Shown here one piece after another: positions 45,901 through 51,900 of a DNA stretch of 64,000 nt. Source of the DNA: Escherichia coli (GTDB taxonomy: Bacteria > Pseudomonadota > Gammaproteobacteria > Enterobacterales > Enterobacteriaceae); NCBI RefSeq assembly GCF_044647545.1, contig NZ_CP172818.1. One strand, 5' to 3'. The position numbers were made by a program. Within the stretch, counting starts at the first letter, position 1; every line of letters starts with the position of its first letter.

Positions 45901-48900
45901 TAGTTTCAACATGGATGGCATCTTTTCAAAATGATATGTATTCGAAAGATAATCCTATCTCTCCTTACTATGAACTGGAATGGTAGATAATTGACCACTT
46001 AAATGATTAACGAGATACTGAATATATTAGTATCTCGTTCCTTTCCTTCAATCCTACACATAAAAATATATGCGCTTACCCAAAGTTAAAATCTTATCCA
46101 TCTTCATGTTTTCTATATTAATTACAAAAATGTCTTTCGCCAGTAGCGCTTGCTTTAATGAAGCAGGATCAATTTTCAGAATCGAACCAAATTTGATCAA
46201 AGCTATCGCTCTTGTTGAAAGTAATTTAAAAAATGATAGCATCGGCAAGAACAGGGATAAGAAAAACAATATAAAGAGTTTTGATTATGGTTTAATGCAG
46301 ATAAACCAGATGCACATTCCCATGTTAAAAAAACGTGGAATAATAAAAGATGAACGAGATTTGTTAGATAACCCCTGCCTGAACATTAAAATAGGGACCG
46401 AGATTTTATATAATCATTTTTCACGTTGTGGGGTAACGTGGCAATGTCTGGGGACATATAACGCGGGTTTTGCAATGGAAAACCAAAAAAAGAGGCTGCA
46501 ATATGCAAAAAAAATATATGTTGTATATACCAGACTTAATGAAATAGACAAGCGTAAGGCTTTAGCAAAATGAGCCTAAAGCCTCTTTTTTTATATAGTG
46601 CAAACACCCATACGTAAAGCTGTTTTGATCAACTCGATACCACTGTGAACATCTAATTTCTTCATGATATTGAGTCTATGAGTTTCGACTGTTTTCCTGC
46701 TTAACTGCAAGAAATTAGCGATTTCTTTGTTTGTTTTTCCATCAGCTATGAGTTGTAGTATTTCAGACTCACGATTTGTAAGTTGATTATCAGAGGAATA
46801 TCTTGAAGATATTTTTTCACAATCCATATGTACACTATCAAAATAAGTGTAACCATTACTAATCGAATCAATAGCGCGATTTAGTTTCGCCGGGTGACTG
46901 GTTTTCCATACGCATCCTTTCGCACCGGCTTCAAGCAATTTTATTGAATCAATATACGGCATTTTTGCTACAAATGTAATAATATGAGCATCTATTTTAT
47001 GCGATTTAACCCATTTTATGAGTTCGGACCCCATCATTCCACCTGCAAATTCTCCTAAAATAAATATTTGGGCTGCAGATTTGTTACACTCCGCTATAGC
47101 TTTCTTCAGATCTTTATAGCCCCCAACAACCTCATATAAATCGGGATAATGTCCGAGAAATCCAATTATCCCATCAATCATAAACGGCTGCTGATCTGAA
47201 ACTACAATTATAATCTTTCCCATATATTCATCCTGAGTGTAAATGCAATAACGCATTCATTTATAATCATCCCTTCCATTATTATTATAAGCAAAATCCA
47301 AAGAATACATTGATGAAATAATAATGAAATATAATTAAAAATAAAATTTTCGCGTAAGCAGAATAACACCAGTGTTGAAAAATCATTAGGCGTTTAAAAT
47401 ATTAGAATTAGATTATATTCAAGTTATTAAACCGGAGACAGTGATCTATAAGTCCTCTGGGTTCGTCAAATCAGAATTATTCATAGCCAAAGAATCTATT
47501 TCACACATTCTTTCAACTAAATAATGTCTGGCATGTTCACAGATTTCATTAACCTTGTCAGGGGAAAAACAGTGATTGCTAATTAAATATTGCTCACAAT
47601 TATCCACAAATTCCTGCGGACTAAATTCAGCAATAAATTGATCTGTAAAAAAAATAAAACGTTTGTCATCATGATATGAAATATGGACATTCCATATTGA
47701 CTTGTCGACAAAATATGACTCTACTTCAATAGACTTATCTTTGAAACTGGTAGGTATATAGAGATTTAAAGGGCCTGATATTGACGGTAATTTTGTTACC
47801 CAACTTTCAAAAATTTTGATAAAAACTTCAACTTCCTCTGAAGATTTTAACAATATGCTCTTCAGATCGTTTATCATGTTTACTCTGTTTTTTTCTAATT
47901 CTGAGCTCAGCAAACTTATCAAGGGTATAAAATTATCCATCACATCAATAATGCCTTTCGCATAGCCATCATAATAACCTTGAATAATTTTTTCTTCTCT
48001 CTTTCCCTCAATACTCTGAATTTTTGCGGTGGTTTCAAGAAGGATCTGTTCTTTTAGAGAAACTATTTCTTTCAATCCATCAGAAATTATTCTTTTAATC
48101 ACAACACCATTTGCAGGAGAGTTTATCAAGCTCATCTCTATTTTTTTTCGCATAAAATGTAATTCTCTCCAAAAGAGTAGACGCAACTGGTAACGGCAAT
48201 TGTATGTGGTCAACAAAATCAGGAAATAATAAATTAAATCGTTGCTGCATTGCCAACGGTTGTTGCCTTACATAGGGCAACAACGTTGAAAAACCACATG
48301 TGATGATATTCTGATAGTTAACGATGCCAGGTTTATATCGTGCCTTTTCATTTATTTCCACCGGTATCGCTGATAAATAATTCCTTAGCACATCAGGAAC
48401 CTTGTAAAAAAATCCGCGTTCTGCAAACCTTTCTCGATAAAAGTGACAACCACTGAGTAAACAGATCAATGGAAATAATTTCCAATTGTTTATTGGATTT
48501 GCCCCTATATTTCCAGACATCTGTTATCACTTAACCCATTACAAGCCCGCTGCCGCAGATATTCCCGTGGCGAGCGATAACCCAGCGCACTATGCGGATG
48601 CCATTCGTTATAATGCTCGAACGCCTCTGCAAGGTTCTTTGCTGCCGTTAACCCGTCTGGTTTGGGCATGATACTGATGTAGTCACGCTTTATCGTTTTC
48701 ACGAAGCTCTCTGCTATTCCGTTACTCTCCGGACTCCGCACCGCCGTGTTCTTCGGTTCAAGTCCCAACATCCGGGCGAACTGGCGTGTTTCATTAGCCC
48801 GGTAGCATGAACCATTATCCGTCAGCCACTCCACTGGAGACGACGGAAGATCGTTGCCGAAGCGGCGTTCCACCGCTCCCAGCATGACGTCCTGTACTGT

Positions 48901-51900
48901 TTCACTGTTGAAGCCGCCGGTAGTGACCGCCCAGTGCAGTGCCTCACGATCACAGCAGTCCAGCGCGAACGTGACACGCAGTCTCTCTCCGTTATCACAG
49001 CAGAACTCGAACCCGTCAGAGCACCATCGCTGATTGCTTTCTTTCACGGCCACTCTGCCTGTATGTGCCCGTTTCGATGGCGGTACAGCAGGTTTTCGCT
49101 CAAGCAACAGCGCATTCTGGCGCATGATCCGGTAAACACGTTTGGCATTGATCGCAGGCATACCATCAAGTTCTGCCTGTCTGCGAAGCAGCGCCCATAC
49201 CCGACGATAACCATACGTTGGCAGCTCTCCGATAACATGGTGTATACGGAGAAGCACATCCGTATCATCAGTGTGACGACTGCGGCGGCCATCCATCCAG
49301 TCATCGGTTCGTCTGAGAATGACGTGCAACTGCGCACGCGACACCCGGAGACAACGGCTGACTAAGCTTACTCCCCATCCCCGGGCAATAAGGGCGCGTG
49401 CGCTATCCACTTTTTTGCCCGTCCATATTCAACGGCTTCTTTGAGGAGTTCATTTTCCATCGTTTTCTTGCCGAGCAGGCGCTGGAGTTCTTTAATCTGC
49501 TTCATGGCGGCAGCAAGTTCAGAGGCAGGAACAACCTGTTCTCCGGCGGCGACAGCAGTAAGACTTCCTTCCTGGTATTGCTTACGCCAGAGAAATAACT
49601 GGCTGGCTGCTACACCATGTTGCCGGGCAACGAGGGAGACCGTCATCCCCGGTTCAAAGCTCTGCTGAACAATTGCGATCTTTTCCTGTGTGGTACGCCG
49701 TCTGCGTTTCTCCGGCCCTAAGACATCAATCATCTGTTCTCCAATGACTAGTCTAAAAACTAGTATTAAGACTATCACTTATTTAAGTGATATTGGTTGT
49801 CTGGAGATTCAGGGGGCCAGTCTAAACTTGCTCTTTTCTTCTGGTATTTATCTTTGAAAGATTTGCAGGATAAATAACATTAAGTAAAGCCGCATCGGCT
49901 TCTCTGTAATGTTTATCTTTTTCCAGATAACCTGGGGATTCTCCCCCTAAATCAAGCTGTAACGTTATTCTTTCATAACCTTTATCTATGAGGTGGTTCA
50001 ACCTCGTTGTTGAAAAAGTTGCATCCAGTTCATTGGCTTTAGCTTCGCGTAGTAAATCAGAGACAAAAACAGAGTCTTTCTTCGAGAGTAGGTTTGACAA
50101 ACGTTCCAGTCCAGAGGTCACCAGTGCAACGGAAGATGTGTTTAATCGGGCATCTTCTTCCCACGCTCCGGAATCTTCCATAATATAGAAATTGGCTTCA
50201 TCCAGATAAGCAATCAGCAGCGCAACCGATTTTAATCGGTCACCTTTTTGCCAATCTTCAGCGTTAATAGTACCAGTGTCGATTGCTTGTATAAGGAGAT
50301 CAAGATAAAGACCTAACGCATCATTTTGTTTATGGTTCCACAGCTGCGGCTTGCCTTCTTCCTGCACATCTGCCATCACGGGGGAGTTGCTGTCAAATCG
50401 GATATGTACAGCATTCATTTGCCCAGGAATACCATCCAGTCGTTTTGGGTTGCTAATGACGTCCTGCATCCGCTTAATCTGGTCGGGCGTAGACATATAA
50501 TCCCACAGAGTGAGCAGAACCTTTTTTGCGGCTACACTATTTCCCTGATCTGATACTAATGCCATATAGCCCCATAAACTATCCCTCAGCCAGACAGCAT
50601 CATAGTGGGTTTCTGCCGCTGTTTTGTCATCTTCGAAAGTAGAAGCAAGAATAAATGTTCCCCAGGGTTTCTCCGTCAACGTTAACTTTCGTGTATTTTC
50701 TGTTAATGTTAACAATCCTTGAATTTCGTCTTTGGTATAGTGGCTCTTTATTTCATTTTTTAATTTGGCTGAGTGAATCAGAAGACGATAATTAGGATAC
50801 TTATCTGGATTTAACGATAAATAACTTTTATCAGTTGCTGCCCCCGTGGAATTAAGAATGTTAAATACAGATTCACTCGTCACTTCTGCCCCTGTCGCCT
50901 GGCATGTGCCGCACGAAAATATACCAGCGAGCAGAAGAGTTAATGTAGATTTCCCTTTCATAAAAGATTCCATCAATCGTTTGTTAAAAGCGTAGATAAC
51001 CACTTATTTAACAACTTGAAAATAAGGTATTTTACCTGGGTTGTTACAAAAGGATTGCATTGCGTAAACGCTTTTTATTTACAAAAAAATGGGGAAGTGT
51101 TACAGCGATTGCGAAAAGTCTGAAGCAATTGAATTAAGATAATATAGAAAGTCAGATACAGCAAAAATGGCAGGTTGATGAGGTGAAGATAAATTGGAGC
51201 GGGCGAAGGGAATCGAACCCTCGTATAGAGCTTGGGAAGCTCTCGTTCTACCATTGAACTACGCCCGCTTCGAGATGCGTAAGGCATTATAAACCTTACG
51301 CTCTCCTTAGCAAGTACCGCGCTGCTGACTGCTGATTAATTCGCCATCAGCATTTTGGCTTGCTGCCCTGAGGCGGCAAGTAACGTAGCGGATCAATTGC
51401 CGTTGCACGGTAACGAATCTGGAAATGCAGGCGAACCGATGCCGCATCAGTGCTCCCCATAGTGGCGATTTTTTGCCCAGCCTTCACGCTTTGCCCATTA
51501 TTTACCAGCATCGTGTCATTATGAGCGTAAGCCGTAATGTAATCTTCACTGTGTTTAATCATGATGAGATTACCGTAGCCACGCAGCTGGTTGCCCACAT
51601 ACACCACCTTTCCTGCACCCGCGGCGTAAATAGGTGTACCCCGTGGAGCTGAGATATCAATCCCTTTATTGCCGCCATCAGCTGTCGAATACGGCATGAT
51701 AACTTTCCCTGTCGTTGGCCATAACCAACAACGTTGCCCTACTGGCGGCCAGGAAGATTTCGGTACTGCTGATGACGGTGTAACCGATGCGGTTTTGGTC
51801 GTTGATTTGGCGGTTGATTTACGTGTACTGCTACTTTTCGCCCCACCCAGTTTTAGTTTCTGACCAACTTCAATGGTGTAAGGGGGGGAAATGCCGTTCA

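What the first reader, a model, noticed from the sequence alone, without database searches (positions are those of the whole stretch)
48480..49830. IS2 without a target-site duplication, creating fusion ORFs at both junctions
IS2 normally makes a 5-bp direct repeat, but the flanking pentamers here (tttat and aactt) differ, consistent with an IS-mediated adjacent deletion having removed the central ETT2 apparatus genes. The IS2 right inverted repeat supplies an ATG that reads into the ygeO remnant ([13 protein letters not shown]...), and the first bases of the left end supply the TAG that terminates the truncated ygeQ. Transcription out of the IS could drive ygeO and ygeN.
Basis: seen in the sequence. 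Interest (0 to 1): 0.45.

Follow-up and report, generated by a model that had tools for sequence, protein, structure and literature searches.

The report
IS2 deletion scar in ETT2 island
A complete IS2 insertion sequence sits where about 17 kb of a decayed type III secretion island is missing, with the same breakpoints as laboratory E. coli K-12, so the feature is real but already known, and finding it on a non-K-12 (ST648-type) backbone looks more like a chimeric assembly than new biology.

Summary
An intact 1,331-bp IS2 lies at 48494..49824 on the minus strand. Its flanking pentamers are TTTAT and AACTT, so there is no target-site duplication. The right inverted repeat (IRR) supplies an ATG plus 9 codons in frame with OrgA residues 62-193. 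The first three bases of the left inverted repeat (IRL), TAG, stop a GH15 (ygeQ/pkgA) gene after codon 379 of 536.

The adjacent-deletion reading holds. In the nearest relatives, which are ST648-type genomes identical over 55 kb, the two flanks lie 16,944 bp apart and span the ETT2 apparatus genes. Nine natural isolates carry the precursor, a simple orgA::IS2 insertion with a perfect TTTAT duplication. K-12 equals that state minus 4,434 bp, starting exactly at the IRL tip.

Both window junctions and the IS2 itself are base-identical to K-12. The fusion ORF is K-12's annotated YgeO. This is a known allele.

The oddity is provenance. The flanks are ST648-type to within 15-22 bp of IS2, and no other public sequence has this combination. 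The only other large K-12/ST648 structural difference in the window is filled with degenerate A-rich junk. A K-12/ST648 chimeric assembly is the likeliest cause.

Outward transcription from the IS is untested, and the sequence gives it only weak support.

The parts
48494..49824 (-). Complete IS2 element (1,331 bp), IS3 family
   Evidence: Ends located. It is 100% identical to the IS2 at the same locus in K-12 and LD27-1, where RefSeq annotates it as 'IS3-like element IS2 family transposase, programmed frameshift'.
48494..48534 (-). IRR, the right inverted repeat (41 bp), ending ...CA-3' at 48494. It contains the outward TGGAAA -35 and the ATG at 48518-48520.
   Evidence: IR lengths and the donor-end role are from PMC3299598.
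49783..49824 (-). IRL, the left inverted repeat (42 bp), starting 5'-TAGACTGG at 49824. Its first three bases form the TAG stop of the GH15 fragment.
   Evidence: PMC3299598.
49368..49733 (-). IS2 orfA (insC), 121 aa
   Evidence: Translation; ORF list.
48505..49410 (-). IS2 orfB (insD) frame, with the A6G -1 frameshift motif at 49410-49416. The product has HTH_21, rve and rve_3 domains.
48489..48493 (.). TTTAT, the retained copy of the original 5-bp target duplication of the orgA insertion
   Evidence: LD27-1 has TTTAT|IS2|TTTAT at the same site.
49825..49829 (.). AACTT, the first bases of the distal flank (GH15 codon 379 region). It is not a duplication partner of TTTAT.
   Evidence: In intact islands it follows ...TATTTTTAG directly.
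48095..48520 (-). IS2-initiated fusion ORF (141 aa): 9 IS2 codons followed by OrgA/MxiK residues 62-193. It is the counterpart of K-12 'YgeO'.
   Evidence: alignment to the intact 193-aa OrgA. (the K-12 version is named YgeO; the window version is not on record).
49822..50961 (-). Truncated glycoside hydrolase family 15 gene (pkgA / ygeQ-ygeP region). It keeps 379 of 536 codons and takes its stop codon from IS2.
47446..48153 (-). orgB-like gene (ygeN equivalent), intact here. It lies downstream of the orgA remnant and overlaps it.
51195..51268 (-). tRNA-Gly(CCC), glyU, the right-hand landmark of the ETT2 island
   Evidence: Island low-GC profile.

Best explanation
This is the K-12-type 'orgA::IS2 plus adjacent deletion' allele of the ETT2 island.

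Step 1 (shown): IS2 inserted into orgA between codons 61 and 62 and duplicated TTTAT.

Step 2 (the outcome is shown, the route is inferred): all DNA from the IRL tip to codon 379 of the GH15 gene was lost. One complete IS2 remained, with flanks that were never neighbours, so there is no duplication. The most likely route is that a second IS2 copy landed at AACTT in the same orientation and homologous recombination between the two copies removed the interval. The alternative is a one-step intramolecular attack by the IRL-IRR junction of a tandem IS2 dimer. Both routes give exactly this sequence.

The two 'fusion ORFs' are by-products. IRR happens to carry an ATG that stays open to its tip, and IRL begins with TAG. 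Neither product is expected to function, because the T3SS apparatus is gone.

In this window the allele sits on an ST648-type backbone whose relatives have the intact island. The allele was therefore not inherited by descent there.
For: - IS2 ends and the lack of a duplication.
- The flanks are 16,944 bp apart in the identical-backbone genome FDAARGOS_497, and the interval holds orgA-5', the apparatus and regulator genes from the inner-membrane ring (SctJ/PrgK-like), inner rod, needle and PrgH/EprH genes through the export apparatus, ATPase, gatekeeper and secretin to the InvF-like regulator, a GhoT-like gene and GH15-3'.
- Nine genomes have the simple insertion as one 305-bp piece. LD27-1 shows TTTAT|IS2|TTTAT with an identical IS2.
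- K-12 equals LD27-1 minus 4,434 bp starting at the IRL tip, and its right flank is 100% identical over 1 kb.
- The window and K-12 align in one piece through both junctions, with 0 differences inside IS2.
- ORF frames.
- The K-12 fusion ORF is the annotated YgeO.
- IS2 normally inserts with direct repeats set by a 5-bp spacing, and IRR is the donor end (PMC3299598).
- Copy-out/paste-in IS elements, including IS2, form dimers whose junctions generate deletions (PMC9333248).
Against: - No genome with the two-copy intermediate (IS2 also at the AACTT site) was found among 5,426 genomes. The 16 apparent hits are IS2 copies 114 to about 430 bp away. The route of step 2 therefore remains inferred.
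- No precursor with ST648-type flanks exists, so the two-step history is demonstrated only for the K-12 haplotype.
- There is no transcript or protein evidence for either ORF.
Confidence: 0.85

Rival explanations
1. Provenance rival A: the window is an in-silico K-12/ST648 chimera. The organism is ST648-like with an intact ETT2. The local assembly path or template came from K-12 DNA, for example a mixed culture with a K-12 conjugation recipient, or K-12-guided scaffolding or patching. Consensus or polishing then converted the flanks to ST648 bases. Under this reading the IS2 scar is the K-12 allele and not a feature of this strain.
For: - Both junctions and the IS2 are base-identical to K-12, while the flanks carry ST648 alleles at 48475, 48479 and 49846, which lie 15-22 bp from the IS.
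- The window is 100% identical to FDAARGOS_497 over 1-41221 and 49825-64000.
- Across 64 kb, K-12 and ST648 differ by only two structural differences larger than 100 bp. Both are exactly where the window deviates: the IS2 swap, and a 226-bp K-12-absent segment that the window fills with progressively degenerate A-rich junk ending where K-12 homology resumes.
- The ST648-type junction is absent from 5,426 complete genomes, from metagenome contigs and species-representative genomes, and from about 15 billion proteins. The K-12 version is on at least 1,000 contigs.
- All three metagenomic junction hits have K-12 flanks.
Against: - No reads are available, so this cannot be shown directly.
- A 73-bp K-12-absent segment (51109-51181) is perfectly ST648-type.
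- No K-12-only SNP survives anywhere in the flanks.
- The junk block is not a typical product of any specific pipeline I can name.
Confidence: 0.55
2. Provenance rival B: an in-vivo recombinant. A K-12-type deletion allele and ST648-type DNA recombined in a cell, in the wild or in a laboratory cross. The exchanges resolved at the borders of the large heterology, so no donor flank SNPs accompany the IS2.
For: The same mosaic pattern as in rival A. It follows from established recombination knowledge (my inference) that branch migration stalls at large heterologies, so exchange points can cluster at their borders.
Against: - It needs two independent exchanges, one within 14 bp and one within 21 bp of the IS.
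- The flanks are 5-7% diverged on the left, which suppresses recombination.
- It does not explain the junk block at the other K-12/ST648 heterology.
- No second example exists in any collection searched.
Confidence: 0.2
3. Provenance rival C: independent recurrence. IS2 inserted at the same orgA nucleotide in an ST648 strain and deleted to the same GH15 nucleotide, because IS2 targets both sites specifically.
For: - The intact sequence 4 nt from the orgA site has an 11-nt match to IS2 positions 40-50, the OrfA-binding region (p about 0.006 per test).
- The GH15 site has a 9-nt match to the IRL-proximal region (p about 0.02).
- IS2 has hit the GH15 gene repeatedly in other lineages.
Against: - Those other hits are at different nucleotides, 114 to about 430 bp away.
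- The orgA site is occupied only on the K-12 haplotype in 5,426 genomes.
- The motif matches are borderline after correction for 8 tests.
- The distance spanned differs (16.9 kb against 4.4 kb), yet the endpoint is identical.
Confidence: 0.05
4. Function rival: the IS2 end acts as a mobile promoter, so the scar is a regulatory gain that drives the orgA remnant and the orgB-like gene rather than a neutral scar.
For: - IRR carries the outward -35 of Pjunc, and IS2 fusion promoters are documented for ampC, acrEF and neo (PMC9330008; PMC3299598).
- Pjunc reconstructs as TGGAAA-17-TAGACT, and the same -35 here faces TAAACA at 17 bp.
- No terminator is predicted between the orfB stop and the orgA remnant, so read-through is possible.
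Against: - The candidate -10 lacks the conserved final T and matches only 3 of 6 positions.
- The consensus scan finds no outward promoter, and the count for the whole region is below the shuffle expectation.
- There is no Shine-Dalgarno sequence before the IS2 ATG.
- The downstream genes encode T3SS sorting-platform parts that have no apparatus left to serve.
Confidence: 0.15

Closest known systems
E. coli K-12 MG1655 ETT2 remnant: ygeO - IS2 - (ygeP)/ygeQ
   Same: Both IS2 junctions are identical to the base. The IS2 is 100% identical. The same 9-codon IS2 leader is fused to OrgA 62-193, which is the annotated YgeO, and the same IS2 TAG ends the GH15 fragment.
   Different: - The flanks differ by 2-7%: 394 mismatches in 8.5 kb, the nearest 15-22 bp from the IS.
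- K-12's pseudogene lesions in the LuxR-type regulator, the lytic transglycosylase, the orgB-like gene and GH15 are absent here.
- K-12 also lacks 226 bp and 73 bp segments.
- The backbone is ST648-type.
orgA::IS2 simple insertion in natural K-12-haplotype isolates (K-12-type flanks and the same RefSeq protein IDs as K-12) (LD27-1, HL15, SF10, L9, TUM12357, A134_1EC, EC-07, EC06)
   Same: The same insertion point, orientation and IS2 sequence, and the same left junction.
   Different: These isolates keep the second TTTAT copy and 4.4 kb of island to the right of IS2. They represent the precursor state and have a proper 5-bp duplication.
Deletions made by IS3-family and other copy-out/paste-in IS elements. 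Examples are IS30, IS911 and IS2 tandem-dimer junctions, and the IS150-mediated rbs deletions in the long-term evolution experiment (the last from my own knowledge).
   Same: A complete IS is retained at the novel joint, the target duplication is lost, and the deletion starts exactly at an IS tip (PMC9333248).
   Different: The route cannot be read from the sequence here, and no two-copy or dimer intermediate was found.
IS2 fusion promoters (ampC, Jaurin and Normark 1983; acrEF; neo)
   Same: The same outward -35 in IRR sits next to host DNA (PMC9330008).
   Different: The host-supplied -10 at the obligatory 17-bp spacing is poor (TAAACA), and no expression data exist.

Membership tests
IS2 (IS3 family) | Element of about 1.33 kb with imperfect 41/42-bp terminal inverted repeats, 5'-TA...CA-3' | tested here: met
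   1,331 bp. IRL starts TAGACTGG and IRR ends GCAAATCCA. IR definitions are from PMC3299598.
IS2 (IS3 family) | Two overlapping ORFs (orfA, orfB) with an A6G -1 frameshift site, and a DDE (rve) transposase | tested here: met
   orfA of 121 aa, A6G at IS2 position 409, orfB frame of 301 aa. Pfam rve 2.9e-18, rve_3 3.4e-18, HTH_21 2.4e-10.
IS2 (IS3 family) | Near-identity to reference IS2 copies | tested here: met
   0 differences from the K-12 and LD27-1 copies. Many 100% copies exist in E. coli genomes.
IS2 (IS3 family) | 5-bp target-site duplication. This is a signature of a simple insertion, not of the element itself. | tested here: not met
   The flanks are TTTAT and AACTT, with no repeat within 8-bp shifts either way. 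The same element has TTTAT/TTTAT in LD27-1.
IS-mediated adjacent deletion | The flanks are non-contiguous in IS-free genomes, and the missing interval abuts an intact IS tip | tested here: met
   The flanks are 16,944 bp apart in FDAARGOS_497. K-12 lacks 4,434 bp starting at the IRL tip relative to LD27-1.
IS-mediated adjacent deletion | A precursor exists with a simple insertion that shares one junction | tested here: met
   Nine genomes. All are on the K-12 haplotype, and none has ST648-type flanks.
K-12-type ETT2 isoform | Island next to glyU, yqe/yge regulators kept, apparatus genes absent, and breakpoints in orgA codon 61/62 and GH15 codon 379 | tested here: met
K-12-type ETT2 isoform | K-12 haplotype of the remnant, with its characteristic pseudogene lesions and flank SNPs | tested here: not met
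   95.1% identity to K-12 in the flanks. The LuxR-type, transglycosylase and orgB-like ORFs and the 379-codon GH15 ORF are intact, as in ST648 genomes.
IS fusion (hybrid) promoter | Outward -35 in the IS end plus a host -10 at 17 bp | tested here: inconclusive
   TGGAAA-17-TAAACA scores 7/12, and the -10 lacks the final T. It is not reported by the consensus scan.
IS fusion (hybrid) promoter | A transcript initiating at the junction | not testable with these tools
   No expression data are available. The literature search for ygeO/ygeN gave nothing useful.

The most novel reading that the evidence does not exclude
The window is a faithful sequence of a natural ST648-lineage strain that carries the exact K-12 breakpoints. 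That would mean one of two things. Either IS2-mediated deletion is nucleotide-precise and recurrent, perhaps guided by the IS2-end or OrfA-operator-like motifs beside both breakpoints. Or a deletion allele can move between lineages without any flanking donor DNA.
Probability: 0.1. Interest if true: 0.6.

Novelty: already known. Interest (0 to 1): 0.18.

Why it matters
Biologically this is one documented step in the well-known mutational attrition of ETT2. The analysis adds a clean ordering of events for the K-12 allele: a simple orgA::IS2 insertion that still exists in natural isolates, followed by a 4.4-kb IS2-adjacent deletion in an island already shortened by older deletions. It also shows that the annotated K-12 protein YgeO takes its start codon and first nine residues from IS2.

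Practically, the window is a warning case. A K-12-specific rearrangement embedded in ST648 sequence, next to a block of degenerate bases, most likely marks a chimeric or reference-templated assembly. Anyone scoring ETT2 status or IS-mediated deletions from that assembly would be misled.

Tried and rejected
1. Exact-protein look-ups to find the source genome. The 379-aa GH15 fragment occurs on two contigs, but both end 2 nt past the breakpoint with CG or CT rather than IS2's TA. That is a selection artefact of exact-length matching and not evidence for the junction. The 141-aa fusion and the YgeK variant are not on record. The orgB-like variant occurs only next to an intact island.

2. Whole-collection scans for the ST648-type junction found nothing. 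The haplotype-agnostic pattern found only K-12-type contigs.

3. Hot-spot test. A hypothetical IS2 at the GH15 AACTT site with a duplication was not found. The 16 apparent hits are two-piece matches to IS2 copies 114 to about 430 bp away.

4. The idea that the window was built by simple read-mapping consensus on K-12 was rejected in that form. A 73-bp K-12-absent segment is perfect, and no K-12 allele survives in the flanks.

5. The two +A indels and 48005C relative to FDAARGOS_497 first looked like errors. They are natural variants shared with K-12 and/or a Logan assembly.

6. Ren et al. 2004 (PMC415751), the primary description of ETT2 isoforms, is not held. What I say about it rests on citations in other papers and on my own knowledge.

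7. The promoter and terminator scan gave no outward promoter at the IRR.

8. The literature search for ygeO/ygeN expression was uninformative.

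
Full report
**What is in the sequence**

The element at 48494..49824 is a complete IS2 of 1,331 bp on the minus strand. Its left end (IRL, TAGACTGG...) is at 49824 and its right end (IRR...GCAAATCCA) is at 48494. It carries orfA (121 aa), the A6G frameshift motif and the orfB frame. OrfB has HTH_21, rve and rve_3 domains. The five bases outside the ends are TTTAT and AACTT, and no 5-bp direct repeat appears even if either end is moved by up to 8 bp.

On the minus strand an ATG lies 27 nt inside IRR (48520). It opens a 141-codon ORF that consists of MSGNIGANP followed, in frame, by residues 62-193 of the intact 193-aa OrgA/MxiK protein. 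On the other side, the glycoside hydrolase family 15 gene runs for 379 of its 536 codons, identical to the intact protein, and stops on the TAG formed by IS2 bases 1-3. Each frame coincidence has about a one-in-three prior chance.

**What the flanks are in other genomes**

The window's backbone is an ST648-type E. coli. Bases 1-12000 are 100% identical to FDAARGOS_497, strain 'ST648', IMT16316, MS6198, ECONIH1 and others. The whole window is 100% identical to FDAARGOS_497 over 1-41221 and 49825-64000.

In FDAARGOS_497 the left flank ends inside orgA and the right flank starts inside the GH15 gene, 16,944 bp further on. That interval holds:
- the first 61 codons of orgA;
- the inner-membrane ring, inner rod, needle and PrgH/EprH genes;
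- an HTH regulator;
- the SctU/T/S/R/Q export apparatus and SpaN/EivJ;
- the SctN ATPase, SctV, the gatekeeper and the SctC secretin;
- an InvF-like regulator and a GhoT/OrtT-like gene;
- the last 157 codons of GH15.

The flanks are thus not contiguous in IS-free strains.

**How the allele arose**

A constructed query representing a hypothetical simple insertion (IS2-IRL end + TTTAT + the rest of orgA) matched nine genomes as a single 305-bp piece. In one of them, LD27-1, IS2 is flanked by TTTAT on both sides and splits orgA in two. Its IS2 is 100% identical to the window's.

LD27-1 has K-12-type flanks and the same RefSeq protein IDs as K-12. Its island already carries older 3.8-kb and 8.7-kb deletions, plus IS3 and IS1 insertions. 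K-12 MG1655 is exactly this state minus 4,434 bp, starting at the IRL tip and ending at the same GH15 nucleotide. Its right flank is 100% identical over 1 kb.

The order of events is therefore a simple insertion followed by an IS2-dependent deletion of the DNA adjacent to IRL. The first step and the outcome are shown. The route of the second step is inferred.

IS2 is a copy-out/paste-in element. Its IRR is the only donor end in circle formation, and its insertions are normally flanked by direct repeats set by a 5-bp spacing of the catalytic centres (PMC3299598). Elements of this type, IS2 included, also form tandem dimers whose IR-IR junction can attack nearby DNA and produce deletions (PMC9333248).

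I favour a second IS2 copy landing at AACTT in direct orientation, followed by homologous recombination. I know this route for the IS3-family element IS150 in the rbs deletions of the long-term evolution experiment (own knowledge). The one-step dimer route gives the identical product. No two-copy intermediate was found.

**Comparison with what is known**

The window aligns with K-12 in one piece through both junctions. There are no differences inside IS2, and 348 genomes in the collection share both junctions. The K-12 version of the IS2-initiated ORF is the protein that databases call 'putative uncharacterized protein YgeO' (BAE76926.1, ACB03967.1), seen on at least 1,000 contigs. K-12's truncated ETT2 is a textbook example of the island's attrition (Fig. 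1 legend of PMC6030553; PMC3977695; PMC9241512). I attribute the primary description to Ren et al. 2004 from citations and memory, since the paper is not held. The finding as stated is therefore already known.

**The unexpected part: provenance**

K-12 and the window differ at 394 positions in the 8.5 kb around the IS. The nearest differences are at 48475 and 48479 on the left (19 and 15 bp from the IS) and at 49846 on the right (22 bp). At every such site the window has the ST648 allele. The closest relatives all have an intact island.

No complete genome combines these flanks with IS2; the best match is 98.1%, which is K-12. The ST648-type junction is absent from metagenome and species-representative contigs. 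A haplotype-agnostic junction pattern finds only K-12-type contigs. The window's 141-aa ORF is absent from about 15 billion proteins.

Independent recurrence would require the same insertion nucleotide and the same deletion endpoint, 16.9 kb away here against 4.4 kb in the K-12 lineage. Other lineages that acquired IS2 in the GH15 gene did so at different nucleotides.

A second anomaly points to an artefact. Across the full 64 kb, K-12 and the ST648 backbone have only two structural differences larger than 100 bp. One is the IS2/island swap. The other is a 226-bp intergenic segment that K-12 lacks. There the window has a degenerate block at 42442-42597 (97 A, 45 T, 10 C, 4 G). It starts about 55 bp into the segment, decays progressively (G drop-outs first, then G/T/C to A), and returns to perfect sequence exactly where K-12 homology resumes.

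The simplest single cause is that K-12 DNA or a K-12 reference shaped the local assembly path while ST648 reads set the bases. I rate this at about 0.55. I rate an in-vivo recombinant with exchanges at the heterology borders at about 0.2 and true recurrence at about 0.05. Against a naive K-12 mapping consensus, a 73-bp K-12-absent segment is intact and no K-12 allele survives.

**Transcription out of the IS**

IS2's IRR carries the outward -35 of the minicircle promoter Pjunc, and IS2 fusion promoters are documented (PMC9330008; PMC3299598). Reconstructing Pjunc gives TGGAAA-17-TAGACT. At this junction the same -35 faces TAAACA at 17 bp, which matches 3 of 6 positions and lacks the conserved final T. 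The consensus scan reports no outward promoter there and finds fewer sites in the region than in shuffles.

A transcript from that site would begin downstream of the IS2 ATG, so it could not encode the fusion ORF. The ATG has no Shine-Dalgarno sequence before it. Read-through from the weak transposase promoter is possible, because no terminator is predicted between the orfB stop and the orgA remnant. The products would be an N-terminally truncated sorting-platform protein and an OrgB-like protein with no apparatus to serve. I regard the ORFs as incidental.

**Verdict**

The adjacent-deletion interpretation is supported and has been sharpened by the precursor allele. Novelty is nil for the allele itself. 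The residual interest lies in the likely chimeric nature of this window and, with low probability, in a truly recurrent or flank-free transfer of an IS2 deletion allele.

Noticed in passing
window 42442-42597 (within 42399-42599): A degenerate A-rich block (97 A, 45 T, 10 C, 4 G) replaces a normal 226-bp yqeK-ygeF intergenic segment seen in ST648 relatives. It decays progressively from left to right and ends exactly where K-12 homology resumes. K-12 lacks the whole segment, through a deletion between AAGGTGATA direct repeats. It looks like an assembly or consensus artefact rather than biology.
   Followed up: partly
window 47210: The only window-private point difference in 64 kb is T to A, which gives K5I in the LuxR-type regulator (ygeK equivalent). 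The exact protein is not on record in the public collection.
   Followed up: partly
L001 7940-7950 (intact orgA, 4 nt right of the insertion point) and window 49775-49785: The 11-nt sequence TAAATAAGTGA next to the orgA target equals IS2 positions 40-50, which overlap the reported OrfA-binding residues (p about 0.006 per test over 8 tests). A 9-nt match (CTAGTTTTT) lies 22 nt from the GH15 breakpoint (p about 0.02). This is a possible hint of IS-end or operator-like targeting, but it is borderline.
   Followed up: partly
L015 12270-13600 (O39:NM F8704-2) and hits H121-H128: Other lineages carry IS2 in the same orientation 114, about 328 and about 426 bp from the K-12 breakpoint in the GH15 gene. 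In F8704-2 it lies beside another IS3-family element and an integrase island at tRNA-Gly. This points to a regional preference of IS2 for this gene, not a nucleotide-precise one.
   Followed up: partly
L009 (LD27-1) 12975-14234, 16820-17517, 18820-20150: The precursor-type island holds three different IS elements: IS3 in ygeH, IS1 between the LuxR-type gene and the orgB-like gene, and IS2 in orgA. It also has older 3.8-kb and 8.7-kb deletions. The low-GC island acts as an IS sink.
   Followed up: no
L003 and L004 contig ends (equivalent to window 49823): Two unrelated public contigs (ENA ERZ1745125 NODE_78 and Logan SRR29703654) end 2 nt beyond the K-12 breakpoint without entering IS2. This is most simply a selection effect of the exact-length protein look-up, but the coincidence was not explained further.
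   Followed up: partly
window 43000-48200: Unlike K-12, the remaining left part of the island has uninterrupted ORFs for the lytic transglycosylase, the LuxR-type regulator and the orgB-like protein, and the 379-codon GH15 fragment is one ORF. In K-12 these genes are frameshifted, carry an internal stop, or are split.
   Followed up: no
window 49886-49902 (minus strand): A terminator-like hairpin (GAAGCCGATGCGGCTTT followed by a T-rich tail) lies inside the GH15 fragment just upstream of the IRL. The number of such sites in the region is no higher than in shuffles.
   Followed up: no
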